Source: a candidate division Zixibacteria bacterium RBG_16_53_22 (GTDB taxonomy: Bacteria > Zixibacteria > MSB-5A5 > UBA10806). Taken from it: DNA of 64,000 nt. Made by a program: the position numbers and the translations under genes. The notes under the pieces were generated by a model. It saw nothing but the letters and a program-made list of their open reading frames with translations. It was not told where the DNA came from and made no database searches. Positions 4,852 to 44,577 of this stretch are shown piece after piece. Location of the stretch: NCBI GenBank assembly GCA_001775395.1, contig MEWP01000131.1, positions 16,350-80,349 of the forward strand, written 5' to 3'. Position 1 is the stretch's first letter, and each line of letters starts with the position of its first letter.

Positions 4852-5976
4852 TTACATCTTCCCCACCACGGCCTGGGCTATTTCCAGCGTGGTGTTCTGG
4901 CCGCCCATATCATACGTGCGGACCTTCCCCTCGCGGATAACGGCGGCAATGGCGTCTTCCAGCGATTCGGCAGCCGAGGTCTCGCCCAGCCAGTCGAGCA
5001 TGAGCTTGACTGTCAAGAGCGTGGCCATGGGGTTGACCTTGTACATGCCGGAATATTTCGGGGCGCTGCCATGTGTCGGCTCGAACACGGCGTAGTTGTC
5101 GCCGATATTGCCCGAACTGGCGAAACCCAGGCCTCCGACCAACTGCGCCGCCAGGTCGGAGATGATATCGCCGAACATGTTCGAGGTCACCAGCACCGAG
5201 TAATCCTGCGGATTCTTTAATAGCCACATGCACATGGCATCGATATTGGCCTCATAAAACCGAATACCCGGATAATTCTTGGCTACCTCGCGGGCGGTGC
5301 GAACGAACAGCCCCGAGGTTTCCCTCAGCACGTTGGGTTTTTCCACCACGGTAACGCTTGGCTTGCCGTGCTTTTTGGCGTATTCGAAAGCGTCGGTGAC
5401 GATGTTGCGGCTGGCCCGCTTGGTGATGATGCGCAGCGATATGGCCATTTCGTTGGCCGGAGTGCTCGAAAAGCGTTTCATCTTCGCGTTGTTCTTCTCC
5501 GTCGCCTGCCGGAAATCATCGGGCACGGGGAAGAATTCGACCCCCGAATATAGGTCCTCGGTGTTTTCTCGAAATACGGTCAGGTCGATATCATCGCGGT
5601 AATTGAGAGGATTCCCGGGATAGGCCTTGCACGGCCTCAAGTTGGTGCGCAGGTCGAACATTTGGCGGAGTTTCACGATAGGCGAAGCATACGCGATGCT
5701 TTTTCCGCGCAGTTCGGAAGCCAACTCCGCCTCGGCCTCCTCCTTCGGCTTGGAGGTTATGGCGCCGAAGAGAGCGCAGGTCGTGTTCTTGAGGATATTG
5801 ATGGTCCGATCCGGGAGAGGATTCCCCTCCTTGCGCCAGTTTTCCCAGCCGATTTCGGCCGGAATATATTCAGCATCGAGTTTGATCTTATCCAGAACAA
5901 TTTTGGCGGCGTCCAAAACATCATTGCCAACACCATCGCCAGGCATCCAGGCGATCTTGTATTTAGCCATCTCCAA
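4852..5976 (-). CDS. Isocitrate/3-isopropylmalate dehydrogenase family protein (probably NAD(P)-dependent)
   Basis: N-terminal [13 protein letters not shown] glycine-rich motif, 374 aa, and family-typical C-terminal [17 protein letters not shown]. It is a stand-alone gene with no leu neighbours. Confidence 0.8.
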
Positions 5977-6315
5977 CTCCTTTTTACGATTTCTTTCGAA
6001 TTTGCTGGCCTAAATCTATCAATAGGAATTGGCTGAGCAAGCAAAAAGTGTGTGACGATCACCTGGCCTTTATCGTCAGCCGGCTACAGAATAATATTGG
6101 CTTCCAGACTTCAGAAGTTGTCACATGGTCCGTGGTATGCCAAAGACAAGGCGCTGATTGAGGAAAGCCGGGCCCACGCAAAATACGTACCCTGTCCTCT
6201 ATATGAGAGGCATAAAGCGTCGTCTCTCAACGCGAATTGGACAGCTTAAGCACAACGTGATGAGGACTTCTGAAGCCTGCTATTTATTCTCAGAGTGCAG
6301 CAGGTGCAGGGAGGC

Positions 6316-7227
6316 TTACAACCGTATGCGCAGGGTTAAACGGTGCGTGTCGCTGAAATCATTTTTCGAGGGTACATAGGCATAGTCGAAGAAATAAGCC
6401 CTGAACGATATTCCTCCACCGATCGAGAATCCGCGCGAATCATAGTTAATGCCATAACCCGCGCGAAGGGAAAACATGTCTTGATAAATGTACTCTCCGC
6501 CGAGATTGAATTTATTGCTCTTATTCCCCCAATGTGGGATTACATAATCGCCGGAGAAAATGATCCCCCGCAGCCGCGAATCTTCCATGGGACTGCAGGA
6601 TGCGCCAATGCGGACCTCGCGGGGCAAGTCAAATGGCTTGTCGATGAATTTTGGCCTGGTGCCCAAATTTCGAACCGACATTCCCAGGGCCAACTCCGGC
6701 AACGGCATGTAAATGGCGCCAAGATCGATTGCGAAAGCCGAGGCGCTTTCGATGTCGAGTTTCTGATAGGCCCACTTGAGCGAATTGCCAAGCGACAGCC
6801 TGTCGCCGAACGGGCGCGCCAAAAATACCGAAAGAGTGAAATTGTGATCATCGAACGTGCCAAGCGGCTCGCTCGATGGGTTCGAATCGCGACGCTCGAT
6901 ATCGCTGGTCTGGCCGAGATAAAGCCCCAGGCCGAACCTTAAATCGCCCGATCGCGTAATGGCCGAAAAATGCTCCATCGAGGCATCGGTAAGATATGAA
7001 ACATGCATGAGCGAAATCTCGCTGCTCTGCATATGTGCCGCCGAGGCGGGATTGAAATAAGGCGCGCCGGCGTCTCCGGACACGGCCGTGAAAGCCTCCC
7101 CCATGGCCGCAGCTCGGGAGCCCGAGCCGATCAACATGAAAAGAAACGAGCCGGATTCGGACTGGGCGTATGACATGCCGTAGCCCAGGACAACAATGAC
7201 AATGGCGATCGCTGATTTGTGCATCAT
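6316..7227 (-). CDS. PorV/PorQ-like (FadL-like) outer-membrane beta-barrel protein, T9SS-associated, paralog 2
   Basis: Signal peptide and N-proximal motif SRAAAMGEAFTAVSGDAGAPYFNPAS. The C-terminus ends in an aromatic residue. Confidence 0.5.
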   Translation of the reverse strand: MMHKSAIAIVIVVLGYGMSYAQSESGSFLFMLIGSGSRAAAMGEAFTAVSGDAGAPYFNPASAAHMQSSEISLMHVSYLTDASMEHFSAITRSGDLRFGLGLYLGQTSDIERRDSNPSSEPLGTFDDHNFTLSVFLARPFGDRLSLGNSLKWAYQKLDIESASAFAIDLGAIYMPLPELALGMSVRNLGTRPKFIDKPFDLPREVRIGASCSPMEDSRLRGIIFSGDYVIPHWGNKSNKFNLGGEYIYQDMFSLRAGYGINYDSRGFSIGGGISFRAYFFDYAYVPSKNDFSDTHRLTLRIRL

Positions 7228-8216
7228 TAGAATCCCAATTTAAGGGCAAATAGATGCCCGTCCGACGTGCCGTGCTGACCTATCAAATATGCATACTCTA
7301 TGGCGGCCGACCGGTCCCCTTTGAGGTACGCCAGCGATCCCCCGAAAGTGGGGCTGCCCCGGTCGATTCCGATTCTCAGCCCGGCCCAACGCTTGTGCAT
7401 CTCGACCTCGTTAAACTTGCCCTCCTCGTATTCGTCCTCCACGAGTTGGATAACTTTCCTGGTGAACCAATATTCGGCGCCGGCCCTGAACAGCGTCCCG
7501 GTCTTGTCGCTTTTTTCGAAATCGACAGCCGGAATGACCCTGCCGTCAAGCAGATTGCCCGCCAGACCGAATTTGAATATCACCGGGTATTTCTCCTCGT
7601 AGGTTGTGCCATCGCCCCAATAAGCATTGGTGTCCCACCTGTAGGTGGAACCGAGGTTCTGAACCACACCGCCGAGCGAAATGAGCTCCCTGTAACGGAA
7701 TAAAAATCCGGCATCGACACCGATGGTGAAAACATCCAGCTCATCGAGCTTCTCCTGGAGATATCGCAGGCTGGCCCCGAGTGCGGCCGAACCATTGATC
7801 GCCTTGCCGAATGACAGAGTAAAAGCATTTTGATTGTTGTTGATATTGCCAATAATCTGCTGCGATGAGCCGCGGCCCACTATATCCGATACGCCGGCAT
7901 TGACCCAACTGGCGGCCATGACAGCCTCGCTCCTGATCGGAAATGAGATAGCGATGTGGCCGAGGTGCCGATCCAGCGAGAGGGCCTTATAGCTGAGACT
8001 GGTCCCCAGACGCATTTCGAATCCCAGCCCGGCGGGATTGAAGTAGGTGGCCTCGGGCCCCTCGGCAATTGCGGTGAAGGCCCCGCCCATCCCAAGCGGC
8101 CTGGCTCCGACTCCACTTCGCATGAAGGCGCCCGAATAGCCGGCGTCACCCTCACCGGCCATGGCGCAGGAGGCGGAAAACATAAGAACCGATATTATGC
8201 CAGCAAGTTTGTTCAT
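7227..8216 (-). CDS. PorV/PorQ-like (FadL-like) outer-membrane beta-barrel protein, T9SS-associated, paralog 1
   Basis: Signal peptide and GARPLGMGGAFTAIAEGPEATYFNPAGLG motif. The terminal F is typical of outer-membrane proteins. Its stop overlaps the start of paralog 2. Confidence 0.5.
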   Translation of the reverse strand: MNKLAGIISVLMFSASCAMAGEGDAGYSGAFMRSGVGARPLGMGGAFTAIAEGPEATYFNPAGLGFEMRLGTSLSYKALSLDRHLGHIAISFPIRSEAVMAASWVNAGVSDIVGRGSSQQIIGNINNNQNAFTLSFGKAINGSAALGASLRYLQEKLDELDVFTIGVDAGFLFRYRELISLGGVVQNLGSTYRWDTNAYWGDGTTYEEKYPVIFKFGLAGNLLDGRVIPAVDFEKSDKTGTLFRAGAEYWFTRKVIQLVEDEYEEGKFNEVEMHKRWAGLRIGIDRGSPTFGGSLAYLKGDRSAAIEYAYLIGQHGTSDGHLFALKLGF

Positions 8217-9715
8217 TTGATCACCACGACCTTTCCCCAGAGGTCCTCGCCGTAATCGAGCTCCACGCGGTAGAAATAAATCCCGTTGGCGACTATCTTT
8301 CCCTTATCATTGGTGCCGTCCCAGACAATGTCATCCGATTCAACGCCTCCGATTCTATCACGATCGACTGCAACCGTCTTTACCAACTCAAGATTGAAAT
8401 CGTAGATTTTCACCGATGCCCTGGTATTTCTATCCGGCCTGAAATGGACCGTCGAGCCTTTCCTGGTGGAATGATACGGAGAGAATGGGGATGGATAAGC
8501 ATAATGATTGGCAGGATCGAGTTGAGAGCGATATACCCGCCATTCTCCGTCAGATCGGCGCGCGGCGCCATCCGAGCCGCCGGCCCAGACGATATCACCG
8601 ACGACGTCGACTGCGTAAAATGGCGCGTTGTCCTGGTAAAAGGTCTGCCTTTGGGGATCACGGAGACCGGACAGAAGGGTCCAGGAGCTGTAATCGCCGT
8701 TAGATTGATAGAGCCCGAAACTGGTGGCGACATATACCGTATCGCCATTGAAGGCGAAATCCCAGGCCTCGACATCGGGATTATCCGATGGACCAATGAT
8801 ATTGGCTATATGCCAGGTCGCGCCGTCGTCCGTGGTGTAAGCCACTCGTCTCTCCTCCCCCGAAACGACTGCCCGACAAGCGGCCCATACCGTCTTGACA
8901 GTGTCGATCAAATTAATTCCCAGGGCCACCACGTGGTTTCCGGGAAGCTTGAGGGAATCGGGCAAAGTCGTGTCGGATACCGAGAAGGCGTACTGCTCGA
9001 TTGAATCCGGGTAAGTATGAAAGGCGCCAGTGATAGTATCGGCATAGAAGAAAAATCTATATATCCCCCTGGCGGCGCCGCCCCAAACCGAGAAGATATC
9101 CGGGAAATCGGTGGTATCCGTTTTGACAGAGAAAAAGCGATTGCCGAGGCTTCGAAATACGCTTCCATCAAAATCGGCGGAATCGGTGTTGACACTATCA
9201 AGCTGCGTGGGAAACAAGTTGGTCCAGGTGACACCCCAGTCCGTGGAACGGATGAGGCCGCCATAAAAGCAGGCGCCGAAAGCCAGCGAATCATGAAGCG
9301 ACAGGTCGTAGGCAAGCATGCCGACCCGGGTGGCCTGCATCGGCTGTCTATTAATCCAAACCGAATCGGGACGCCCCAAAAAGGAAATCCCATCTCCTTC
9401 GGGATACTCATCGCCCTGGAATTCGCGCGAGTGCGAGGTAGCGACCCAGACAGCCCGATCGTTGGCCGAGAGAGCCGAGACCTCGTCGGCCGCAAGGGGC
9501 TCGTGGCCATAGGTGGTCCAGGTAGCTCCACTGTCGCTGGTGGCTGAGGCGCCCCCGCCTGTGCCGAGCCAAATGGATGTGGAATCGTGGTCGATATCGA
9601 TTACGGAGTTGGATGTCATACCGGTCCGCCCGCCCTGGACAGTCATCTCGATTTCGGCATGCGCCAGGCCCACGAGGGAAAGCGGCAGGAATAAAGCGAG
9701 GAGTTTTCTCATCAC
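8213..9715 (-). CDS. Secreted BNR/Asp-box repeat protein with a T9SS C-terminal sorting domain (type A)
   Basis: Signal peptide and SxDxGxTW repeats (SDSGATWT, STDWGVTWT, TDDGATWH). The roughly 70-aa C-terminus (KIYDFNLELVKTV...GIYFYRVE...VVVIK) is typical of a Por secretion tail. Confidence 0.65.
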   Translation of the reverse strand: MMRKLLALFLPLSLVGLAHAEIEMTVQGGRTGMTSNSVIDIDHDSTSIWLGTGGGASATSDSGATWTTYGHEPLAADEVSALSANDRAVWVATSHSREFQGDEYPEGDGISFLGRPDSVWINRQPMQATRVGMLAYDLSLHDSLAFGACFYGGLIRSTDWGVTWTNLFPTQLDSVNTDSADFDGSVFRSLGNRFFSVKTDTTDFPDIFSVWGGAARGIYRFFFYADTITGAFHTYPDSIEQYAFSVSDTTLPDSLKLPGNHVVALGINLIDTVKTVWAACRAVVSGEERRVAYTTDDGATWHIANIIGPSDNPDVEAWDFAFNGDTVYVATSFGLYQSNGDYSSWTLLSGLRDPQRQTFYQDNAPFYAVDVVGDIVWAGGSDGAARRSDGEWRVYRSQLDPANHYAYPSPFSPYHSTRKGSTVHFRPDRNTRASVKIYDFNLELVKTVAVDRDRIGGVESDDIVWDGTNDKGKIVANGIYFYRVELDYGEDLWGKVVVIK

Positions 9716-9720
9716 GACCT

Positions 9721-10149
9721 CTAGTAGGCTGTTATTATTTGTGACGGGGTGTTTGATCGATTTTCCTGCTTGTCATATGCATAAAAAATAAACGTGTAAT
9801 CACCGGATTGGCTGGTGGGCAGCGGTGATGGAATAATATAAGTATAGCAACCATCGTTGGCGGTGGAGTCTCCATTGACCCCATCGTCATGCAAGAGAAA
9901 CCGAATGCCGTTGGAGGTGCTGTCCGGCCTGGTTACCATGTAATAAACAGAATCGATATCATCCAATCCGTCGGGATCAAATGCGTTAACGGCTAAATAC
10001 GAGGAATCGGGCGAGCCTTTTTCCAGCGAATCGGGCGCGACAAGGTCGAATAATACAGGACCATACCGGACGTCGATGACCTTTTTCTCGCAAGAAATAG
10101 CGACCAAAATGGATAAAATTGCTGCGCTAAAGCTGAATTTTGTTAACAT
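9721..10149 (-). CDS. Small lipoprotein with Asp-rich (possibly Ca-binding) motifs
   Basis: Signal peptide plus lipobox (LVAISC). Motifs DPDGLDD and HDDGVNGDSTANDG. It is the first gene of the T9SS mini-operon. Confidence 0.5.
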   Translation of the reverse strand: MLTKFSFSAAILSILVAISCEKKVIDVRYGPVLFDLVAPDSLEKGSPDSSYLAVNAFDPDGLDDIDSVYYMVTRPDSTSNGIRFLLHDDGVNGDSTANDGCYTYIIPSPLPTSQSGDYTFIFYAYDKQENRSNTPSQIITAY

Positions 10150-10249
10150 CGGGCCGCCTATTAATTAAAGTTGTTACCCCAAAAAGCATTAGTAAATTAT
10201 AATAGGCGGCCTCCGATCTAAAGTAAAGATAAAAAAGGGGTTAATGTAA

Positions 10250-11182
10250 TTAAGATCGTATTTTTTCGGGGTAAAGCGCGGCTCCAAATCTCAGGCCTCC
10301 GGTTGAAACTACAAGTGTATCTTGCTCTATTATACTCAGGAAGGCCAGAAATATTCCCAAGCCCGGCAAAATAAGTTCGGCCCGATCTGGATCAAATGGA
10401 ATCAACTCCCGGCGCCGGGCCAGATTGGCATGCTCAAATTTATGGGCAAGCTTCGAAAGAAGGTCCAAAGTCAGGGGCGACCCGTGAATACGCGCAGGAA
10501 CATAATTTATGAGACCAGCTATCACAGCGGCCGCTGAGGTAATAGTGCCGCCGGTGGCAATGACAGCGGAATTTCCCAGGCTTGGGAATTCCGCCAGCGG
10601 GTTCATCAGATAGTCGACCCCCCGTCCTGTGTAATAGCCATAGAGGTCCTCGGTATCATCTGGAAGCGATTCAAGAAGCTTGAGCGCACCTATCGGGATG
10701 CTTTTAGAATCGAGGATCGTCCCTTTCGATGCAGCCGCCAATTCCGTTGAGCCGCCGCCAACATCGATCAGGATGATTTCGTCAGTCGACAAATCCAGGT
10801 TATACATGGCTCCAAGAAAAGATAATTCGGCTTCATTGCTGCCTGAAATTATTTGAAGATCGAGGCTGGTTTCCCGTTTCAAGGCCTTGGCGAATTCATC
10901 TGAATTTTCGGCCAATCTTAGGGCCTCAGTGCCCAGAAGATAAGCAGCCTCCCATTCCGATTCTCGCACGAACCGCGTGACCGCTGCTGCTGTTCGCTGC
11001 ATAGCTGATTCAGTGAGTCTCCTGGCCGATATTGACCCTTCTCCCAGACGCGTGGTGGCCTTCTTATCGGAAATGACCTCCAAACTCCTGCCATCAACCC
11101 GCGCCACGAGGGCCAGCGTTGAATTTGTGCCTATATCGACTACGAGGCGTTGTTCAGCGGGCACTGATAGAGCTCTTTCCAA
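10250..11182 (-). CDS. Ppx/GppA family phosphatase (short form)
   Basis: LVVDIGTNSTLALVA N-terminal motif and IDVGGGSTEL second ASKHA motif. 310 aa. Confidence 0.8.
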   Translation of the reverse strand: MERALSVPAEQRLVVDIGTNSTLALVARVDGRSLEVISDKKATTRLGEGSISARRLTESAMQRTAAAVTRFVRESEWEAAYLLGTEALRLAENSDEFAKALKRETSLDLQIISGSNEAELSFLGAMYNLDLSTDEIILIDVGGGSTELAAASKGTILDSKSIPIGALKLLESLPDDTEDLYGYYTGRGVDYLMNPLAEFPSLGNSAVIATGGTITSAAAVIAGLINYVPARIHGSPLTLDLLSKLAHKFEHANLARRRELIPFDPDRAELILPGLGIFLAFLSIIEQDTLVVSTGGLRFGAALYPEKIRS

Positions 11183-12551
11183 CGCGGGATTTTGCGGGGC
11201 CCGTGGAATCGGTCATCGTGAGCCATAGCAATTCACCTTGACCTACCAGACTGCCCTGTGTGAAAACATAATCTGGAATATTTAGATAACGATACCTGCT
11301 TCGGATAACCTGCCAATAGAACCTGGCCAGTTCCACGGCCTCGCACTCCGGCAAGATCATGTCGGCGGCAGGCGTAATCTCGTCCTCGGAAAGTTCCAGT
11401 CTCGGCTGGGTGCGGCAAAGGCGGATGGCACGGGTGGTCATATTATCAAGGTCGGGCATCTTGAACGCCGGGACATATAAATAAAATGCATTTTTGGCCT
11501 TATTCTTGGCTATCAAAGGAATCTCTCCGGTGAGGATTTTTGCAAATTCGCCGACACTGCTTTCGCCCCTGCCACCCTTGAATTGGAAACGCCAATACGG
11601 AAAATAGTCCTTTCCCTGCTCGTGCAAGGCCGACCTGGTCTTTGTAAGCCTGTAACCATCAGATACGACAATATATGATTTATGGCAATTCCGACAATAA
11701 TAAATAAGCGAAAACTCGGAAACGGGCAAATCCGCTCCGCAATTGGGGCATCGATGCGGTATCGGTTTGAATTCGTCGCCAATTACCAGGCCGGTTTCTC
11801 CCGATCTATCTTCAAATGGCTCAGATGTCTCGTTGATAATCCTTTTTGAAAGACCATCGATAAAATAGGTGACCGGCATCCCGCCAACGGTGGCCGACAG
11901 GGCCCAGACCGGATAATAGATTATCGAGAGCCCCTCCCCTATCATCTCGGAGATGACATGTTCCTTACCCTCGAGGGCGAAACCGAGATTAAACGCGAAC
12001 ATGCCCATAGCTGATTGTTTAGCATCGTCAGGACTTACTCTGATACCGAGAGGAATCGACCTCGGGAGCAAGATGTCTTTAGCAAAAACGCTTAAAGGAA
12101 TGACCTCCGGCCGCACGCCGAGGCTCTCCAGGCCGAATGCCTTATTCTCGAAAGCTGGAATAGTCAGATCAAAATGACGGCATCTCTGATGAAAAATGGT
12201 CTTGCTCGGTATGACAGCCTGATCGAGCTCGATCTCATCATCTTCGTATTTTTTCTCAGACATGAGCGAATAAGACATGCCCCGGAAACGATAAAATGGA
12301 AGGAAATACAACCGGGTTGTGTCTAAAGCCACGGTGGACAAACGGCCATTGTCCCTCAGATGTTTCTCGACTGCGCATTTCAAGGCGAAGTTATCGAGGT
12401 CGCTTGGATAATAATATTTCAGGATCCTGCCTGGCGCCCCGATCCGCATAACCAGCCCGCAAAATACGCATTGCATGCTGATAGCACCCTCGAGTGTCAA
12501 GAGAGACGAGCCACATCCGGGACAGTTGAAACTGGTCTTGTAATCGGCCAT
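11154..12551 (-). CDS. Double zinc-ribbon protein with an internally duplicated module (function unknown)
   Basis: The module CPGCG..CVFCG + YYYPSD..LYFLPFYRFRG repeats as CPNCG..YCRNCH + ..DYFPYWRFQFKG..FYLYVPAF. Its 3' end overlaps the ppx start by 29 nt. Confidence 0.6.
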   Translation of the reverse strand: MADYKTSFNCPGCGSSLLTLEGAISMQCVFCGLVMRIGAPGRILKYYYPSDLDNFALKCAVEKHLRDNGRLSTVALDTTRLYFLPFYRFRGMSYSLMSEKKYEDDEIELDQAVIPSKTIFHQRCRHFDLTIPAFENKAFGLESLGVRPEVIPLSVFAKDILLPRSIPLGIRVSPDDAKQSAMGMFAFNLGFALEGKEHVISEMIGEGLSIIYYPVWALSATVGGMPVTYFIDGLSKRIINETSEPFEDRSGETGLVIGDEFKPIPHRCPNCGADLPVSEFSLIYYCRNCHKSYIVVSDGYRLTKTRSALHEQGKDYFPYWRFQFKGGRGESSVGEFAKILTGEIPLIAKNKAKNAFYLYVPAFKMPDLDNMTTRAIRLCRTQPRLELSEDEITPAADMILPECEAVELARFYWQVIRSRYRYLNIPDYVFTQGSLVGQGELLWLTMTDSTGPAKSRVGKSSISAR

Positions 12552-12563
12552 TTTCGACCGCTT

Positions 12564-13685
12564 TTATTCGTTTCCGGCCAGACGCTCGCCGCAATTGGTG
12601 CAGAATTTCGATCCGGGAGTCAGCCTGGCACTGCATTTGGGGCAAACCGGCTTCTCACCAAGCTTTTTCCCGCAGGCGAAACAGAAATTGGCTTCCAGTG
12701 GCAAATCGGCGCCGCATTCGGGGCACTTATTCGCCGATACAATAGGGTTACCGCACTTGTAGCAGAATCGAGAATTCTGCGGCGTATCAATGCCGCATTT
12801 CTGGCATGTGATGGTCGGCAATGCCTCGGTCTTCAGATCGCGCTCGTTCGGCGAAAATGCGTTGGATAGCATCGCAGGCACCATCAGGCCAATACCAGCC
12901 CCCAGCCCCATGCCGGCCCCGGCCTGGGCAGGGTCACTGCCCGACGACATCGCCTTGGCCAGTGAATACTTGAGGAATTTGTTGAGGTCCCCAACAGCCG
13001 CCATCGAGGACTTCTCGTCGATCATCTTCTGGACCTCGTCCGGAGGGGTAATGGAGGTGATATAAAAATCAATAAGCTCCATGCCATATTTGCCGAATTC
13101 ATTGGCGATCTTCTCTTTTATCTCGCGGCTCATTTCATCATATCGCTTTGGCAAATCGAGAATGGTATCGAGCCGCTCACCAAAGATGTCATTAATCCTG
13201 GCGACTATAACGTCGCGAAGATAACCGGAGATAATATCTGTCGAAAACGCCGCCTCTCGCCCCACCAGAGAATTGATGAACAAGAGCGGCTCTACAATGC
13301 GGCAGGTGTAGACTCCATATCCACGAAGCCGCACCAGGCCCAGCTCCGTGTCACGGAATGCGACCGGATCGCGCGTACCCCATTTGAGATTGGTAAAGAC
13401 TTTGTGATTGATAAAATAGACCTCACACCTGATTGGGGATTTAAAGCCCCACGGCAACGATAGCGTGCGGGTCAAGAGCGGCACGTTGAGCGATGTCAGT
13501 GAGTGCCTTCCCGGACCCAGGATATCGTACCCCTTGCCGGATTTGAAGAAAACGGCCGATTGCGAATCCCTGACGATCAACTGCGCTCCGGCCTTGATAT
13601 CGAGCGAGCCTTTTTCGGGAATGCGGTGAATCATGTCGGTCGGGCTCATGTCGACCCATTCGAGAATCTCCATCATTACTGACAT
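12564..13685 (-). CDS. SPFH/band-7 (stomatin-like, COG4260-type) protein with C-terminal triple zinc ribbon
   Basis: SPFH-like N-terminal region. The C-terminus has CQKCG..CYKCG, CPECG..CFACG and CPKC..CTNCG zinc ribbons. Confidence 0.7.
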   Translation of the reverse strand: MSVMMEILEWVDMSPTDMIHRIPEKGSLDIKAGAQLIVRDSQSAVFFKSGKGYDILGPGRHSLTSLNVPLLTRTLSLPWGFKSPIRCEVYFINHKVFTNLKWGTRDPVAFRDTELGLVRLRGYGVYTCRIVEPLLFINSLVGREAAFSTDIISGYLRDVIVARINDIFGERLDTILDLPKRYDEMSREIKEKIANEFGKYGMELIDFYITSITPPDEVQKMIDEKSSMAAVGDLNKFLKYSLAKAMSSGSDPAQAGAGMGLGAGIGLMVPAMLSNAFSPNERDLKTEALPTITCQKCGIDTPQNSRFCYKCGNPIVSANKCPECGADLPLEANFCFACGKKLGEKPVCPKCSARLTPGSKFCTNCGERLAGNE

Positions 13686-36469: not shown

Positions 36470-37228
36470 TCAGATGGCGAATTTATCCCTGATCATGCCG
36501 CGCAGACGGGTTACTGCCCTGGTATGTATCTGTGAAACACGCGATTCGGAAATCAGCATGATCTCCCCGATCTCCTTCAGGGTCAACTCCTCATAGTAAT
36601 AGAGGGATATGACGAGCCTTTCCTGCTCGCTGAGACCGCTGATAGCGTGAATCAGAAATACTCTCAATTCCGTCTTCTCCATGTCGTCGAGTACATCAAC
36701 CGAAGTCGAATTTTCGATAGTCTCGATGCGCGGCACCTGCCGGTTATCGTCCTCGCGGCAGATTAGCTCATCGAGCGAAAGCAGAGTTGTGACACTGACG
36801 TCTTTCATCGCGTATCGTAGCTCCTCCGCCGATATGCTCAATGTCCTGGCAAGCTCTGTATCCGAAGGTCCCCGCCCCAGTTCCGCCTCGAGCTTGCTTA
36901 CGGCTTTTTCGATATTTCTGGCTTTAGCCCTGGTCGAACGCGGTACCCAATCGAGGGCTCTCAATTCATCGAGTATGGCGCCGCGGATTCTCGGCACGGC
37001 AAAGGTCTCGAATTTCACTCCGCGGCCGGGGTCAAAATTGTTGAAGGCCTCGATGAGGCCGATGACTCCCGTATTAATCAAGTCATTTAGCTCGACCGAT
37101 TTTGGAAACCCCGCCGCCATTCTGCCCGCCACGTTCTTGACGAGAGGCAGATAGTCCGATAACAGCTTGGTCCGCATATCGGAATTGTTGGTTTCTTTGA
37201 ATCTCGCCCACGTTGCTAAATTGGCCAT
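36470..37228 (-). CDS. fliA: RNA polymerase sigma factor FliA (sigma-28)
   Basis: Regions 2 and 4 of a sigma-28 (LISESRVSQIHTRAV.., YYYEELTLKEIG). The start is set at MANLATWARF; the longer ORF in the track runs through the flhG-like stop. Confidence 0.85.
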   Translation of the reverse strand: MANLATWARFKETNNSDMRTKLLSDYLPLVKNVAGRMAAGFPKSVELNDLINTGVIGLIEAFNNFDPGRGVKFETFAVPRIRGAILDELRALDWVPRSTRAKARNIEKAVSKLEAELGRGPSDTELARTLSISAEELRYAMKDVSVTTLLSLDELICREDDNRQVPRIETIENSTSVDVLDDMEKTELRVFLIHAISGLSEQERLVISLYYYEELTLKEIGEIMLISESRVSQIHTRAVTRLRGMIRDKFAI

Positions 37229-37265
37229 AACCCCGTCCTGTTTAATTATTGATATATCCCTGTTA

Positions 37266-38027
37266 TTATCGTCCCACTTTAGCGGACACTCGAAATGCCG
37301 GCTCCATCGCCTCGGCCGCCGTTTCACTCTGCAACATGGCGATAGCCGCCAGGTCCAGATGCTGTATTGAATCGACCTCGAAATCGCGGCCTGGATTGAC
37401 GCGCCGAATGAATCCACAGTTTTGAATCCTGGCTACGGGAATTTGCCCGGCCAGGATATCGAGGCGGGCCTTGACCGAAGCCGCTTGTTCAACTGAATCG
37501 ACAAATGAGGTGACAGCACCGACATTGGAAGCAATGCCCTCGTCGTTCAGCGACTTCAAGAGACGGCATGACGAAGCCACCGAGATTGAATCGGGCCTGG
37601 TGAAGAGCATTATCCGATCGCTCGATCCGGCGGCGAGTAACGACAGCGGATGGCCTCCCGAGGGCGGGTCGAGAATCAGAAAATCATATTTCTCCGAGAG
37701 CGAGCCTGTTAGCCATACCAACTTCTTGAGATCATCAAGCGACGGATCCAATACCGGCGGGGGAAGACATGTAAGGACATCGAAACCCGGCTCGGCTGAA
37801 ACGACAGCATCTTCGATCCGGTCATCCGCATCGAGAAGAGCCGAATATGAAATAGCCTCCTGTCCACCGAGTCCAAGTCCGCCCCACCCGAAGCAGAGGT
37901 CGAAAAGAAGCACTCTCTGCTCCAGGCCCGCGAGATATCGCGCCAGGCCGACACCGACCGTAGTCCGACCCGTTCCGCCGGCCCCCGAAATGAGAGCGAG
38001 CGTCTTTGCCCGCGGACTTACCGGCAT
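37266..38027 (-). CDS. MinD/ParA-family (FlhG/FleN-like) protein with a degenerate Walker A
   Basis: ISGAGGTGRTT sits where the deviant Walker A KGGxGKT should be; the signature Lys is Ala and the second Lys is Arg. It lies immediately upstream of fliA. Confidence 0.6.
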   Translation of the reverse strand: MPVSPRAKTLALISGAGGTGRTTVGVGLARYLAGLEQRVLLFDLCFGWGGLGLGGQEAISYSALLDADDRIEDAVVSAEPGFDVLTCLPPPVLDPSLDDLKKLVWLTGSLSEKYDFLILDPPSGGHPLSLLAAGSSDRIMLFTRPDSISVASSCRLLKSLNDEGIASNVGAVTSFVDSVEQAASVKARLDILAGQIPVARIQNCGFIRRVNPGRDFEVDSIQHLDLAAIAMLQSETAAEAMEPAFRVSAKVGR

Positions 38028-40122: not shown

Positions 40123-43100
40123 ATGAATTATCCATTAATCACAGGAGAACTTATGCGCAGGAACGCAATCGCGGTGGTGGCATTGTTGCTCATTCTGACC
40201 TCGAATGCCATAGCCGGCACGCTCGTAACCCCTCTCGACGAGATGGTTGCCTCGGCCGATCCCAACCGGAAAATCGGGGTCGTTGTCGCCATGGCCGATA
40301 TGGTAGACAATAAAATTCTGAATGAAAGCCTCAAGAGCCGGTCGGCGACCTTTGCGGAACGTCATTACGAAGTTATCACCACCCTCCAGGCCAAGGCAAC
40401 TTCAACGCAGAGTCAGGTTCTAGACCTTCTAAATGATCTGGAGGCCCGGGGAAAGGCCGAGAAAATCCGAAACTTCTGGATTTCCAACATGATCTCCTTC
40501 GAGGGAACACCGGATGCTATCAGGCAGATCGCTGATCGAAGCGATGTCGACAAGGTCTATTTCGATTTCCCGGTCGAAAATATCGAGCCGTTCCGCGGTG
40601 GCGATGCGCCTCCCATGATTACCAGCCACACAAACGGCCTCGATGTCATCCATGCCCCGCAGGTTTGGGCCATGGGATACACCGGCGCCGGGCGAATCGT
40701 CTCCAATATCGATACCGGCGTTGACGGCACTCACCCGGCCCTTTCCGCCCGCTGGCGAGGCAATAACGGCCATCCGGCAAGCGAATGCTGGAAGGACCCC
40801 GTCCAGAATACGCCTACGCCCACCGATGATGGCCAACACGGCACGCACACCATGGGCACAATCTGCGGCCGCAGCACAACCACTTACGACACAGTCGGCG
40901 TAGCCATCAATGCCCAATGGATTGCCGCGGGAGCGATCGACGATGGTTCGACTATCGCTCAAATTATCGAATGTTTCCAGTGGATTGCCGATCCCGACGG
41001 CAATCCCGGCACCACCTCCGATGTCCCCGATGCAGTAGGTAATTCATGGGGATGGTCGCCGATCTATCATGGCGTGCCGCCTTGTGATGACACATTCTGG
41101 TCGGCCATCGATGGCTGTGAGAACGCCGGCGTAGTGGTTATATTCTCTGCCGGCAACGAGGGGCCAGGCGCCAATACGCTTCGCACGCCCGCCGACCGGG
41201 CCACCACTTATTACAATGCCTTCTCGGTTGGCGCAATTGACGGCCACGCGGCCGGATACCCTATCGCCTCCTTCTCTTCTCGAGGCCCCTGCTCATGCGC
41301 CACGGGCGATATGGCGATCAAGCCCGAGTGCGTGGCGCCCGGTGTTGATGTCTACAGCTCGATTCCGGGCGGCGGTTACGATGGCACCTGGGATGGCACC
41401 TCGATGGCCTCGCCCCATATTACCGGCTCTGTGGCTATAATCAGGCAGGTCAATCCCAATCTAGATGTCGATACTATCAAGGACATAATCCTGCAATCGT
41501 GCGTGGATCTTCCTGCCCCCGGCAACGGCGAGGACAATACCTATGGACACGGCGTCTTAAATCTCCAAACCGCGGTTCAACTTGCCATGACCGGATTCGG
41601 CTTTGCGGATGGCTATGTCAGGGACGCCGGGACCTCGGCGCCTTTGCCGGCCACAGTGTCGGTCGTTGGCGCGGCCAATCAGGTTAATGCCAACGGCTCG
41701 GGTTATTATATAATGGGACTGGCGGCTGATACGACCTATACTCTCAGGGCTTCGTATTTCGGATATACCCCTCTGGATCATAGCGCAGCCATACTGCCCA
41801 ACGACACAACGTCACAAAATTTCCTGCTGTCGCCGGCGCCATCGGCCATCCTTCAAGGGAATGTGACCGACAGCGCAGGAGCCCCGATCGCCGGGGCTAT
41901 CGTCACGGTCTTGAATACGCCCATTATTCCCGATACGACCGATGCCAGCGGATTCTATCAATTCCCGGCCATACCCACAGGTTCTGTTTACCAGGTAGGC
42001 GCTACCGCCCCCAGCCACAGCTTCGATCGAGATTCCATATTGATTCAAAGCGGCACCAACATTTTGAATTTTGTCCTCTATTCGGTTGAATCGTTCGAAT
42101 ACAGCAATGGAGGCTACATAGGCACCGGTGTCTGGCAATGGGGCGTGCCGACTGCCGGCCCGCCCGGAGCCCATTCGGGGACCAAAGTCTGGGGCACGGT
42201 CTTGAATGGTGAGTATCCAGATAATGTGGACGATAATCTCATCAGCAGCAATTTCGTGATCAGCGCTCCCAACTCGCGTCTGGAATTCTGGCATTGGTAT
42301 TCGATGGAATCGACCTGGGATGGCGGAAACGTCTCGATATCGACCAACGGCGGCGCCACCTGGAGTTTGATCACCCCCCTGACCGGCTATCCCGATCAAA
42401 GCGTCTACGCATTAGACGATCAACCGGGATTTAGCGGCTCCAACGGCGCCTGGTCGTTAGTCAGGTTCAATTTGAACAGCTACGTGGGACAGACAGTCAA
42501 GATTCGCTGGCGGTTTTCGTCGGACGGATTGATAACGGATTACGGATGGTATATCGACGACGTTGCCATATATGTGCCCGATCCACCCAATATCACTTAC
42601 AATCCGACATCCTACAGTGTCCAGGCGGCGCCGGGCCAGATCGAAATCAGGAGCCTCAATATCGGCAATACCGGTCCCGGGTCCCTCGATTACTATCTGT
42701 CGACCATAACAAATAATCTAATCCTGAACGACGGCCGGTCGGTCCCATTCAATATCACCGCCCTTAAACCAAAGCCGATCGATTACGTTTCCATCGAAAC
42801 AAAATCGGGCATTGTCACGCAGCCGATTTACCCGCCGGTGATAGCCGGCAGCGGCGGCCCCGATACCTACGGGCACTACTGGATCGATTCCGACGAACCG
42901 GGCGGCCCGCCGGCGACATATGTCGATATTTCCGGCGTAGGAACTCCGATATCCCTGAGCGATGACAATTACCTGGGTCCGTTTTCAATCGGATTCAGTT
43001 TCCCCTATTTCGAAAACAACTACACTCAGCTCTATATCTGCTCCAATGGGTATGTTTCCTTTGGAAACGGCTATAACTCAAATGACTTTGTCGGCATACC

Positions 43101-44577
43101 CAGCACCGGTACGCCCAACAACTTTGTTGCCGCGCTCTGGGAGGATGTTAACCCCGGCGCGGGCGGCACGGTTCGATACTACTACGATTCCGCCAATCAG
43201 CGATTCATTGTCAGCTTCGACGACGTGCCATACTGGCTTTATGGCGGCAGCCTCGATTTCCAAATGGTCCTTTATGCCAACGGCAAGATCGAGATGAATT
43301 ATGGGACGCTCAGTCCGGGATCGCACAATTTAAATACCTGCACGGTGGGGATCGAAAACGCCGGCGGCACGGACGGCCTCCAAATCTCCTATAATTCGGC
43401 ATACCTCCACAGCAACCTCAGCATCAGAATCTCAGCCTCATGGCTTTCCGCGGAGCCATCGAGCGGCAACGTGGCGCCGGGCGGGAATGCCTCGCCGACA
43501 ATTACATTCGACGCCAGGAATCTCGTAATTGGCACGTATACCGGCAATATCAACCTCGATTCGAACGACCCGGACACTCCCAATATCGATATTCCCGTAA
43601 CGTTCATTGTCGGCGCCGGCGGAACGCCGAATATAGTCGTAATCCCGGGCGCAGTCGGAGATACATTGGTCCAGGGCCAGTCGGCCGTGCATACTCTCAA
43701 AATCAAGAACACCGGGACCGGGACCCTGGGAATCACTTTCGCCGATTCAGCAGCCTGGCTGAGTGTTCCCGCCGGGTCGTATTTCATATCTCCCGGCGAC
43801 AGCATTTTCAGCAATATTACACTTAACGCCACGGGCTTGACGCCGGGTACTTATTCCGGCAGAGTCTGGGTGAACTCAAACGATCCCGACCAGCCGGCTC
43901 TTAATGTTCCGGTCACATTGCTTGTGATTCCAGTCGGCGCGCCGGAGATAAACCTGTCCAGAACCGCTTTTGTCGACACCGTCTTGGAGGGCAATTCGAT
44001 TGCCCGATATTTGTATATCACCAATAGCGGCACCGCGACTCTCCTCTATGGCGTGCACGACAATCGCGCCTGGATAACTGCTGCCCCCGATACGGGCAAT
44101 GTGCCGGTATCGTCGACCGACACTATAACGGTTACATTCAGCGCCGCGGCTTTGACACCGGGAACGTATGCCGGCCAGGTAAATGTCAATTCAAACGACG
44201 CCGATGAAAGTTCGACGATATTGCCGGTAACGCTTCTTGTAATGCAGTCAAGCGCCGGATGCAGCTACGCGGCGGGCGATATCAACAGCGATGGGACCGC
44301 AAACGGCCTCGATGTTACTTATGGTGTGTCATTCCTCAAGGGTGGCGCCGCACCACCGGATACCTGTTTTGATTGCCCCGTTATCGATGAAGATCTCTTG
44401 GCGGCCGGCGATGTCAATGGCAGTTGCGGCTTTAACGGCATAGATATCACATTTTTCGTCGCCTATCTTAAAGGGTTGCAGCCGGGACTGCTTTATTGCC
44501 CCGACTGCCCTCCGGCAAGCACCGAGGCCCCGGCCATAATTAAACATGAGTCGCAGGCAAAGGCGATCGCCAGATAA
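40123..44577 (+). CDS. Secreted S8 (subtilisin-like) serine peptidase, 1484 aa, with a beta-rich middle region and a dockerin-like C-terminus
   Basis: Signal peptide and catalytic triad (SNIDTGVD, HGTHTMGTI, GTSMASPHITG). The C-terminal GDINSDGTANGLD and GDVNGSCGFNGID loops match dockerin-type Ca-binding motifs. Confidence 0.85.
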   Translation: MNYPLITGELMRRNAIAVVALLLILTSNAIAGTLVTPLDEMVASADPNRKIGVVVAMADMVDNKILNESLKSRSATFAERHYEVITTLQAKATSTQSQVLDLLNDLEARGKAEKIRNFWISNMISFEGTPDAIRQIADRSDVDKVYFDFPVENIEPFRGGDAPPMITSHTNGLDVIHAPQVWAMGYTGAGRIVSNIDTGVDGTHPALSARWRGNNGHPASECWKDPVQNTPTPTDDGQHGTHTMGTICGRSTTTYDTVGVAINAQWIAAGAIDDGSTIAQIIECFQWIADPDGNPGTTSDVPDAVGNSWGWSPIYHGVPPCDDTFWSAIDGCENAGVVVIFSAGNEGPGANTLRTPADRATTYYNAFSVGAIDGHAAGYPIASFSSRGPCSCATGDMAIKPECVAPGVDVYSSIPGGGYDGTWDGTSMASPHITGSVAIIRQVNPNLDVDTIKDIILQSCVDLPAPGNGEDNTYGHGVLNLQTAVQLAMTGFGFADGYVRDAGTSAPLPATVSVVGAANQVNANGSGYYIMGLAADTTYTLRASYFGYTPLDHSAAILPNDTTSQNFLLSPAPSAILQGNVTDSAGAPIAGAIVTVLNTPIIPDTTDASGFYQFPAIPTGSVYQVGATAPSHSFDRDSILIQSGTNILNFVLYSVESFEYSNGGYIGTGVWQWGVPTAGPPGAHSGTKVWGTVLNGEYPDNVDDNLISSNFVISAPNSRLEFWHWYSMESTWDGGNVSISTNGGATWSLITPLTGYPDQSVYALDDQPGFSGSNGAWSLVRFNLNSYVGQTVKIRWRFSSDGLITDYGWYIDDVAIYVPDPPNITYNPTSYSVQAAPGQIEIRSLNIGNTGPGSLDYYLSTITNNLILNDGRSVPFNITALKPKPIDYVSIETKSGIVTQPIYPPVIAGSGGPDTYGHYWIDSDEPGGPPATYVDISGVGTPISLSDDNYLGPFSIGFSFPYFENNYTQLYICSNGYVSFGNGYNSNDFVGIPSTGTPNNFVAALWEDVNPGAGGTVRYYYDSANQRFIVSFDDVPYWLYGGSLDFQMVLYANGKIEMNYGTLSPGSHNLNTCTVGIENAGGTDGLQISYNSAYLHSNLSIRISASWLSAEPSSGNVAPGGNASPTITFDARNLVIGTYTGNINLDSNDPDTPNIDIPVTFIVGAGGTPNIVVIPGAVGDTLVQGQSAVHTLKIKNTGTGTLGITFADSAAWLSVPAGSYFISPGDSIFSNITLNATGLTPGTYSGRVWVNSNDPDQPALNVPVTLLVIPVGAPEINLSRTAFVDTVLEGNSIARYLYITNSGTATLLYGVHDNRAWITAAPDTGNVPVSSTDTITVTFSAAALTPGTYAGQVNVNSNDADESSTILPVTLLVMQSSAGCSYAAGDINSDGTANGLDVTYGVSFLKGGAAPPDTCFDCPVIDEDLLAAGDVNGSCGFNGIDITFFVAYLKGLQPGLLYCPDCPPASTEAPAIIKHESQAKAIAR

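What the first reader, a model, noticed from the sequence alone, without database searches (positions are those of the whole stretch)
6316..10149. Compact T9SS cargo locus: lipoprotein, BNR-repeat cargo with CTD, and two tandem PorV/PorQ-like barrels
Four co-oriented genes have overlapping or near-overlapping boundaries. The 500-aa BNR/Asp-box protein ends in a canonical type-A T9SS sorting domain. Directly downstream are two paralogous ~300-330-aa signal-peptide proteins sharing the G-x-R-x-x-G-M-G-G-A-F-x-A-x-x-x-x-x-x-A-x-Y-F-N-P-A motif of PorV/PorQ (FadL-like) shuttle proteins. Cargo genes paired with dedicated outer-membrane shuttle paralogs imply cargo-specific export adaptors. The upstream Asp-rich lipoprotein (DPDGLDD, HDDGVNGDSTANDG) could be a Ca-binding partner or anchor. 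This shows the organism has a T9SS, which helps place it phylogenetically (the exact phylum is not determinable here).
Basis: partly seen in the sequence, partly recalled or inferred. Interest (0 to 1): 0.55.

Follow-up and report, generated by a model that had tools for sequence, protein, structure and literature searches.

The report
Conserved T9SS-linked propeller and barrel module

Summary
The four minus-strand genes at 6316-10149 are real and tightly packed. The window comes from Zixibacteria bacterium RBG_16_53_22, where all four genes are annotated as hypothetical.

The barrels are PorV/PorQ-family 14-stranded barrels. By sequence and by fold they are closest to PorV, not to FadL or BamG. 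Neither reaches the PorV or PorQ equivalog cut-off.

The 500-aa protein is a 7-bladed Asp-box propeller with a C-terminal beta-sandwich. That tail is not a canonical type-A sorting domain. It gives no TIGR04183 or PF18962 hit, although ordinary Zixibacteria cargo do pass TIGR04183. It resembles the PorU and PorZ tails and is more conserved than the propeller itself.

The order lipoprotein, propeller, barrel A, barrel B recurs in nearly all 80 related loci from Zixibacteria, Ignavibacteria, Calditrichota and KSB1. In 6 of 6 SprA loci examined in the Calditrichota clade, the module lies one to three genes downstream of the translocon gene.

Best reading: a fixed surface complex like PorQ-PorZ. 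The tail is kept and docks onto a dedicated barrel. It is not variable cargo with private shuttles.

T9SS core genes in Zixibacteria could not be checked.

The parts
9721..10149 (-). Gene 1: small lipoprotein (142 aa) with one Ig-like 'choice-of-anchor X' domain. It is a short form of a family that is usually 270-500 aa long.
   Evidence: Signal peptide plus Cys (VAISC), with a Cys at this position recurring in homologues. NF041940 choice_anch_X scores 36.7 bits against a cut-off of 25. It lies directly upstream of the propeller in at least 58 of 74 loci with enough flank.
8510..9715 (-). Gene 2, N-terminal part: Sec signal peptide (residues 1-20, ...AHA/E) followed by a 7-bladed Asp-box beta-propeller (residues about 28-400).
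8213..8509 (-). Gene 2, C-terminal part: specialised T9SS-type beta-sandwich tail (residues 403-500, plus the stop codon).
   Evidence: FlgD_ig scores 24.8, below its cut-off of 27, and there is no TIGR04183 or PF18962 hit. The best matches are the tails of PorU (NF033707 29.2 bits; 6ZA2 1.2e-4) and PorZ (25.4 bits). A profile built from 22 ordinary tails found in the related loci (most of them with the YPNPFN type-A pattern) hits it at 42 bits, E 1.8e-11. It is more conserved than the propeller.
7227..8216 (-). Gene 3: barrel A (329 aa), a signal-peptide outer-membrane protein of the PorV/PorQ family. It forms its own orthologous group with an LSLDR motif.
   Evidence: NF033709 scores 86.4 bits, just under the cut-off of 90; its orthologue in L057 scores 118. 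The A3 profile hits PorV 6H3I_F at 9.8e-17. It lies directly downstream of the propeller in 70 of 73 loci. Its own profile scores 375 bits and the barrel B profile 122 bits.
6316..7227 (-). Gene 4: barrel B (303 aa), a 14-stranded PorV/PorQ-family barrel forming a second orthologous group.
   Evidence: NF033709 scores 158.6 bits against a cut-off of 90. PorQ (93 against 220) and PorV (74 against 250) are below their cut-offs. The A2 profile hits PorV 6H3I_F at 1.2e-34. The model has pLDDT 88 and 14 strands. Foldseek's top hits are PorV 8GL6_F (2.5e-15, TM 0.78) and 6H3I_F. It follows barrel A in 62 of 64 loci.
10199..10227 (-). Weak sigma-70-like promoter match in the 100-nt gap upstream of gene 1.
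   Evidence: It matches 9 of 12 consensus positions. The number of such sites in the region is not above the shuffled expectation, so this is only a possible operon start.
10250..11182 (-). Conserved upstream neighbour: Ppx/GppA-type exopolyphosphatase. It is shared gene order, not an assigned part of the module.
   Evidence: TIGR03706 scores 181 bits. The same neighbour precedes the module in 8 related loci (some named Zixibacteria) and, in the Calditrichota clade, lies between SprA and the module in L051, L082 and L084.
4852..5976 (-). Conserved downstream neighbour: isocitrate/homoisocitrate-type dehydrogenase. It is shared gene order only.
   Evidence: NCBIfam hits at 339 bits. The same family sits directly downstream of barrel B in 28 loci.

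Best explanation
The four genes form one co-transcribed, anciently conserved module that builds a fixed outer-membrane and cell-surface complex tied to the type IX secretion system.

The propeller protein is taken across the inner membrane by Sec. It is then exported through the T9SS translocon by means of its C-terminal beta-sandwich. Unlike ordinary cargo, it keeps that tail. The tail docks onto one of the two dedicated PorV/PorQ-family barrels encoded next to it. This parallels PorZ held by PorQ, and PorU held by PorV, in the Porphyromonas gingivalis attachment complex.

The second barrel either holds the Ig-like lipoprotein or acts as the PorV-like partner of the translocon.

Shown: the operon-like packing, the family and fold of each part, conservation of the gene order across phyla, the unusual conservation and divergence of the tail, linkage to SprA in a related clade, and type-A cargo in Zixibacteria.

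Inferred: that the tail is retained, which barrel binds what, whether the complex is part of the secretion machine or a conserved client of it, and what the propeller binds (possibly a surface glycan or lipopolysaccharide, as PorZ does).
For: - Tight packing: overlapping stop and start codons.
- The barrels are PorV-like and not FadL- or BamG-like.
- The same gene order is found in Zixibacteria, Ignavibacteria, Calditrichota, KSB1 and unnamed MAGs. Barrel A follows the propeller in 70 of 73 loci, barrel B follows barrel A in 62 of 64, and the lipoprotein precedes the propeller in at least 58 of 74.
- The barrels form two separate orthologous groups.
- The tail is a specialised variant. It has no TIGR04183 hit, while 7 ordinary Zixibacteria cargo score 29.5-41.2 bits against a cut-off of 23. 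Its best hits are the retained tails of PorU and PorZ.
- The tail is more conserved than the propeller: 49% against 40% mean pairwise identity, and 20 of 98 against 30 of 373 columns at 90% or more.
- Foldseek's top PDB hit for the whole protein is PorZ 5M11, at 2.7e-15.
- In 6 of 6 SprA loci examined, with SprA identity from 100% down to 41%, the module lies one to three genes downstream on the same strand.
- PorU and PorZ are known to keep their tails. [quoted passage not shown]
Against: - No member passes the PorZ, PorQ or PorV equivalog cut-offs.
- PorZ is not hit by sequence.
- There is one tail-bearing protein for two barrels, and no PorU-like sortase in the module.
- SprA linkage is seen only in the Calditrichota clade, not in the window or within 10 kb in Zixibacteria or Ignavibacteria loci.
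- T9SS core genes were not found in the roughly 30 window ORFs scanned.
- T9SS core genes were not looked for elsewhere in the genome.
- No binding, retention or surface exposure was tested.
Confidence: 0.55

Rival explanations
1. The propeller is an ordinary T9SS cargo (an enzyme or adhesin). The two barrels are private shuttle adaptors that only ferry it from the translocon to its release or attachment site, after which the tail is cleaved.
For: The tail is homologous to ordinary cargo tails of the same phyla: a local profile of such tails hits it at 42 bits, E 1.8e-11. The barrels are PorV-family proteins. PorV is a shuttle in P. gingivalis (PMC5562754 title). Some related loci (L057, L067, L070, L074) pair another tail-bearing protein with another PorV-family barrel.
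Against: Conservation of the gene order across phyla points to a fixed core function and away from variable cargo. The tail is more conserved than the propeller and fails the type-A model that true cargo of the same phylum pass. This is unexpected for a disposable signal. Linkage to the translocon gene points the same way.
Confidence: 0.2
2. A T9SS-independent uptake system. The two FadL-like barrels import hydrophobic or polymeric substrates, which the surface propeller and the lipoprotein capture.
For: The barrels have the FadL fold with the N-terminal NPA hatch motif. TodX and FadL are hit at 1e-5 to 1e-3 by sequence and 1e-8 by fold. Pfam UPF0164 (PF03687) is met at 40.5 bits against a cut-off of 21.4. 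From my own knowledge, that family was defined on Treponema proteins, and Treponema has no T9SS. Metabolic genes flank the module.
Against: PorV is a far better match than FadL or TodX by sequence (1e-34 against 1e-5) and by fold (TM 0.78 against about 0.65). Toluene_X scores 18.1, below its cut-off of 29.7. The propeller needs a route across the outer membrane, and it carries a T9SS-type tail. The module is linked to SprA in 6 of 6 loci.
Confidence: 0.1
3. A BAM accessory set like BamG-BamH of Bacteroidota, in which a FadL-like barrel anchors a surface lipoprotein next to BamA.
For: BamG is a FadL-family barrel that holds the lipidated tail of the surface lipoprotein BamH. Both are reported as conserved in six of the seven other FCB phyla (PMC12611786). 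The module contains FadL-fold barrels and a lipoprotein.
Against: The NCBIfam BamG model gives no hit on either window barrel at E<=1. The barrel profiles do not hit BamG chains in the PDB. Foldseek ranks BamG (9HIV_F 2.6e-7, TM 0.52) well below PorV. BamG-BamH has no tail-bearing propeller.
Confidence: 0.05

Closest known systems
PorQ-PorZ subcomplex of the P. gingivalis T9SS attachment complex
   Same: A propeller protein with a non-canonical C-terminal beta-sandwich, paired with a dedicated PorV paralogue (PMC10947112). PorZ 5M11 is the top Foldseek hit for the propeller model. Barrel B and barrel A score higher on the PorQ model than on the PorV model.
   Different: PorZ has two propellers and about 776 aa. 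The window protein has one, although forms of 780-860 aa exist in the family. All HMM scores are far below the equivalog cut-offs: PorZ 25 against 260, PorQ 93 against 220. From my own knowledge, porQ and porZ are not adjacent in P. gingivalis. Here there are two barrels plus a lipoprotein in one operon.
PorU-PorV pair and the SprA-PorV translocon complex (6H3I, 8GL6)
   Same: Barrel B is closest in sequence and fold to F. johnsoniae PorV. The tail's best sequence matches are to the PorU tail. The module lies next to SprA in the Calditrichota clade.
   Different: No PorU-like C25 peptidase is in the module. The PorV equivalog cut-off is not met (74 against 250). The barrels are about 300-330 aa, against 402 aa for the full-length PorV chain in the PDB.
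Type-B C-terminal-domain proteins with their PorP/SprF-like partners (for example SprB-SprF)
   Same: The same principle: a secreted surface protein is encoded next to a dedicated outer-membrane partner that anchors it (reference cited in PMC10947112).
   Different: The barrels here belong to the PorV/PorQ family, not to PorP/SprF; there is no TIGR03519 hit. CHU_C gives only weak sub-threshold hits (16.7 bits).
BamG-BamH of the Bacteroidota BAM complex
   Same: A FadL-fold barrel anchors a surface lipoprotein, and the pair is conserved across FCB phyla (PMC12611786).
   Different: There is no BamG model hit, and BamG is a weaker structural match than PorV. BamG-BamH has no tail-bearing propeller.
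FadL/TodX hydrophobic-compound channels
   Same: A 14-stranded barrel with an N-terminal hatch carrying the NPA motif.
   Different: These are much weaker matches than PorV. The Pfam Toluene_X score is below its cut-off.

Membership tests
PorV/PorQ family (NCBIfam NF033709) | Whole-protein HMM score at or above the curated cut-off of 90 bits | tested here: met
   Barrel B scores 158.6 bits. Barrel A scores 86.4, just below the cut-off, but its orthologue in L057 scores 118.
PorV/PorQ family (NCBIfam NF033709) | 14-stranded FadL-type barrel closest in fold to PorV | tested here: met
   The barrel B model has 14 strands and pLDDT 88. Foldseek's top hits are PorV 8GL6_F and 6H3I_F, with TM 0.76-0.78. 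Barrel A was not modelled; it was tested by sequence profile only.
PorV/PorQ family (NCBIfam NF033709) | Binds the C-terminal domain of T9SS substrates or associates with SprA/Sov | not testable with these tools
   Only gene linkage to SprA in related clades is available.
T9SS PorV equivalog (NF033710) | HMM score at or above 250 bits | tested here: not met
   Barrel B scores 74.1 and barrel A 23.2.
T9SS PorQ equivalog (NF033711) | HMM score at or above 220 bits | tested here: not met
   Barrel B scores 93.2 and barrel A 52.8.
T9SS PorZ (NF052228; Pfam PorZ_N_b_propeller) | HMM score at or above 260 bits over two propellers plus the tail | tested here: not met
   The window protein scores 25.4 bits, on the tail only. 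Among long forms, 13 of 29 match at E<=0.01, best E 1.1e-11; the one shown in detail (P0065) scores 39.4 bits on the tail only. PF21544 matches 2 of 31 members weakly. 5M11 is not hit by sequence.
T9SS type-A sorting domain (TIGR04183 / PF18962) | HMM score at or above the cut-off (23 / 27 bits) at the extreme C-terminus | tested here: not met
   There is no hit at E<=1, and 0 of 31 family members match PF18962. As a positive control, 7 other Zixibacteria proteins score 29.5-41.2 bits.
FlgD Ig-like domain (PF13860) | HMM score at or above 27 bits | tested here: inconclusive
   The window protein scores 24.8 bits. 28 of 31 homologues match at E<=0.01.
BNR/Asp-box propeller | Repeated S-x-D-x-G-x-T-W motifs on a beta-propeller | tested here: met
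   Three canonical motifs are read in the sequence. BNR matches 23 of 31 homologues. The model is a 7-bladed propeller.
Choice-of-anchor X domain (NF041940) | HMM score at or above 25 bits | tested here: met
   36.7 bits at residues 86-124 of the 142-aa lipoprotein.
PorP/SprF (TIGR03519) | An HMM hit | tested here: not met
   No hit at E<=1 on any of the four proteins.
FadL/OmpP1/TodX (PF03349) | HMM score at or above 29.7 bits | tested here: not met
   Barrel B scores 18.1 bits and barrel A has no hit.
BamG (NF053685) | HMM score at or above 250 bits | tested here: not met
   No hit on either window barrel at E<=1. The only hit is 31.5 bits, on the third barrel of L057.
Type IX secretion system (as a whole) | SprA/Sov, GldK/L/M/N and PorU present in the same genome | not tested
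   No core gene was found among about 30 window ORFs. SprA is shown only in the Calditrichota clade.

The most novel reading that the evidence does not exclude
The module is the attachment or shuttle unit of the T9SS in FCB phyla outside Bacteroidia, possibly the ancestral form. A single-propeller PorZ counterpart is held through a retained tail by a PorQ-like barrel. The second barrel serves as the PorV of the SprA translocon. An Ig-like lipoprotein takes the place of a fourth subunit. If so, this four-gene operon would be a compact, syntenic marker and a tractable minimal model for how T9SS cargo are collected and fixed to the cell surface.
Probability: 0.25. Interest if true: 0.7.

Novelty: new variant of a known kind. 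Interest (0 to 1): 0.5.

Why it matters
T9SS biology rests almost entirely on two Bacteroidia models. In those models the attachment-complex genes are scattered, and PorQ-PorZ is poorly understood.

This is a four-gene operon that keeps a tail-bearing propeller, two distinct PorV-like barrels and a lipoprotein together across several phyla, and that sits next to SprA in one of them. It gives a natural co-evolving set for structure prediction, for contact inference and for knock-outs in cultured carriers. L034 is named Ignavibacterium album, and L084 carries an SprA that NCBI names as Caldithrix abyssi.

It also shows that, at least in this case, sub-threshold FlgD_ig-type tails in these phyla include a specialised class distinct from ordinary type-A signals. 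That matters for automated cargo counts.

All four proteins are annotated as hypothetical in the source genome.

Tried and rejected
- **PorU next door?** In L057, L067, L070 and L074 a tail-bearing protein of about 1150 aa precedes a third PorV-family barrel, which looks like porU-porV. It has no NCBIfam, Pfam or PDB sequence hit, so it was not called PorU.
- **BamG and generic FadL identities.** Rejected.
- **T9SS core genes in the window.** About 30 larger ORFs were scanned. All were housekeeping genes: SMC, ClpB, PheST, ThrRS, PBP1A, RNase Y, FolD, XseA, Pta and FliA. There was also an S8 protease.
- **SprA in Zixibacteria.** The SprA search listed only Calditrichota-type proteins in its top 120. 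No SprA fragment was found in any other fetched locus or in the window.
- **Literature.** No paper in the library holds both 'Zixibacteria' and 'T9SS' or 'type IX secretion'. The Caldithrix genome paper reports no Bacteroidetes-type gliding machinery.
- **Other tail-bearing ORFs in the window.** None was found with either tail profile.
- **Rfam on 5500-11500.** No match.
- **Promoter and terminator scan.** Not above the shuffled expectation.
- **Antisense ORFs inside the four genes** (for example 6343-6942 +). Treated as shadows of the coding strand and not tested; the minus-strand ORFs are the ones with exact database proteins and family matches.

Full report
**What is there.** The region 6316-10149 holds four minus-strand ORFs exactly as described: 10149-9721 (142 aa), 9715-8213 (500 aa), 8216-7227 (329 aa) and 7227-6316 (303 aa). 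A 5-nt gap, an ATGA overlap and a TAATG overlap separate them. All four are exact matches to GenBank proteins OGC90807, OGC90806, OGC90805 and OGC90804. These are annotated as hypothetical proteins of candidate division Zixibacteria bacterium RBG_16_53_22, on a contig of 109.5 kb. So the genes are real and the phylum is known. Rfam finds nothing in the region. The promoter and terminator scan is not above chance.

**The lipoprotein.** The 142-aa protein has a hydrophobic leader ending in VAISC. A leader ending in Cys at this position recurs across its homologues. It passes the NCBIfam choice-of-anchor X model with 36.7 bits against a cut-off of 25. Elsewhere its homologues are usually 270-500 aa with repeated Ig-like units. 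The window has a short form, as do its close relatives L002 and L007.

**The propeller.** The 500-aa protein has a Sec signal, three canonical Asp-boxes and a confident model (pLDDT 89, pTM 0.85). The model is a 7-bladed propeller followed by a beta-sandwich.
- Foldseek ranks PorZ (5M11) first at E 2.7e-15, ahead of the HTCS sensors, GH74 and Ycf48, but with a low TM-score.
- By sequence profile, the first blade matches Reg_prop repeats of HTCS sensors, and the tail matches the tail of PorU (6ZA2, 1.2e-4). PorZ itself is not hit.

**The barrels.**
- Barrel B passes the PorV/PorQ family model with 158.6 bits against a cut-off of 90. Barrel A scores 86.4, just under it.
- Neither reaches the PorV, PorQ or PorV2 equivalog cut-offs, and there is no BamG or PorP/SprF hit.
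- Profiles built from 30 orthologues each hit F. johnsoniae PorV (6H3I_F) at 1.2e-34 (barrel B) and 9.8e-17 (barrel A). TodX and FadL appear only at 1e-5 or weaker.
- The barrel B model (pLDDT 88, 14 strands) is closest to PorV in the translocon complexes 8GL6 and 6H3I (TM 0.76-0.78). TodX and FadL follow at about 1e-8, and BamG at 2.6e-7.
- The two barrels are 24% identical.

**The tail is not a canonical type-A signal.**
- TIGR04183 and PF18962 give no hit at E<=1, and FlgD_ig scores 24.8 against a cut-off of 27.
- Of 31 family members, 28 match FlgD_ig and none matches Por_Secre_tail.
- This is not a property of the phylum. Seven other secreted proteins from Zixibacteria loci (L002, L007, L009, L016, L017) pass TIGR04183 at 29.5-41.2 bits. 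Most of the ordinary tails collected from the related loci show the usual YPNPFN...WDG...GIYFY...K-x-x-LLK pattern.
- A profile of the 22 ordinary tails collected from the related loci still recognises the window tail (42 bits, E 1.8e-11). So it is a homologous but specialised variant.
- Its best curated matches are the tails of PorU and PorZ.
- Across 66 module copies the tail is more conserved than the propeller: 49% against 40% mean pairwise identity, and 20 of 98 against 30 of 373 columns at 90% or more. That is what one expects of a retained interaction domain and not of a disposable signal.

**Conservation of the module.** A scan of one genome per species with the propeller alignment returned 80 loci. 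By record name they are 21 Zixibacteria, about 20 Ignavibacteria, 3 Calditrichota, 2 KSB1, several 'Bacteroidota' MAGs and 20 unnamed.
- Where the contig has enough flank, barrel A follows the propeller in 70 of 73 loci. Barrel B follows barrel A in 62 of 64. The lipoprotein precedes the propeller in at least 58 of 74.
- Barrel A and barrel B are two separate orthologous groups. Each scores 330-375 bits on its own profile and 120-150 on the other. They are therefore an ancient pair, not a recent tandem duplication.
- Variants exist. There are propellers of 660-860 aa, a tandem propeller in L081, a rearranged order in L080, and a third barrel in L057-type loci.
- The family comprises 488 clusters at 50% identity with E<=1e-30.
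- The only other recurrent neighbours are housekeeping genes: an isocitrate-type dehydrogenase downstream (28 loci), Ppx upstream, and a site-2 protease in Ignavibacteria.

**Link to the translocon.** In L051 (Calditrichaceae) a 2096-aa protein upstream is SprA. It hits 6H3I_A at 1.5e-91 and scores 123.6 bits on PF14349. It is followed by an M28 peptidase, PrmA, Ppx and then the four-gene module. I looked up five further SprA homologues with identities down to 41%. All five show SprA, then one to three housekeeping genes (an M28 peptidase and Ppx in some, PrmA in all), then lipoprotein, propeller, barrel and barrel on the same strand. That makes six of six. One of these SprA clusters is named by NCBI as the T9SS translocon of Caldithrix abyssi. 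The window shares Ppx directly upstream of the module but has no SprA within its 64 kb.

**Interpretation.** In P. gingivalis, PorU and PorZ are both substrates and components of the T9SS. Their tails are not cleaved. [quoted passage not shown] The module here has the same logic: a propeller with an atypical, highly conserved tail next to dedicated PorV/PorQ-family barrels.

I therefore favour a fixed surface complex in which the tail stays docked on one barrel. The second barrel would hold the lipoprotein or partner the translocon. I put this at 0.55. The docking, the retention of the tail and the division of labour between the barrels are inferences.

It is weakened by the conservation across phyla, the linkage to SprA and the nature of the tail (0.2). 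A T9SS-independent FadL-type uptake system (0.1) and a BamG-BamH-like set (0.05) fit the data less well.

**Limits.**
- I could not scan the Zixibacteria genome for SprA, GldKLMN or PorU. About 30 window ORFs are housekeeping genes.
- The paper library holds nothing on T9SS in Zixibacteria.
- The resemblance to PorZ is at the level of architecture and one Foldseek ranking. It is not family membership.

**Verdict.** It is wrong about the canonical type-A tail and about this being a cargo locus. What is here is an uncharacterised, widely conserved variant of the T9SS barrel-plus-tail pairing. It is of moderate interest, mainly as a compact handle on T9SS attachment outside Bacteroidia.

Noticed in passing
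window 40123-44577 (+): A 1484-aa secreted S8 subtilase with CarboxypepD_reg, MAM-like, choice-of-anchor D/J and BACON/HYDIN-type Ig domains. Its last 140 or so residues carry two D-x-N-x-D-G-type repeats (GDINSDGTANGLDV and GDVNGSCGFNGIDI) that look dockerin-like. It has no T9SS tail.
   Followed up: partly
L057 3405-7946; also L067, L070, L074, L073: In the loci with the long (about 840 aa) propeller form, a TonB-dependent-receptor-like gene is followed by a protein of about 1150 aa with its own C-terminal-domain variant (...GIYIYHVDSPYGEKIGKFAVVR). This protein has no Pfam, NCBIfam or PDB sequence hit. Next comes a third PorV-family barrel scoring 214 bits. The layout resembles porU-porV, but the protein is not PorU by any model.
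   Followed up: partly
L051, L082-L086 (SprA loci of the Calditrichota clade): SprA is followed on the same strand by PrmA (ribosomal protein L11 methyltransferase), often with an M28 peptidase and Ppx, before the module. This housekeeping 'spacer' is itself conserved down to 41% SprA identity. The Caldithrix abyssi genome paper states that no Bacteroidetes-type gliding machinery was found.
   Followed up: partly
window 4852-5976 (-) and 28 related loci: An isocitrate/homoisocitrate-type dehydrogenase sits directly downstream of barrel B on the same strand, in the window and in 28 loci carrying varied taxon names (many unnamed). This is an unexplained conserved adjacency of a metabolic gene to an outer-membrane module.
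   Followed up: no
window 11154-12551 (-) and 12564-13685 (-): A 465-aa protein with several CxxC zinc-ribbon-like motifs and no family hit overlaps the end of Ppx. Next to it is an SPFH/Band-7 protein with three C-terminal zinc ribbons.
   Followed up: no
L081 9983-12964; L043; L080: Module variants: a tandem duplication of the propeller gene in a KSB1 MAG (L081) and apparently in L043, and a rearranged order (barrel A, lipoprotein, propeller, barrel B) in L080.
   Followed up: no
window 36470-37417 (-): A FliA/WhiG-type flagellar sigma factor scoring 267 bits on TIGR02479. This suggests, but was not checked further, that the organism is flagellated, as Caldithrix is reported to be.
   Followed up: no
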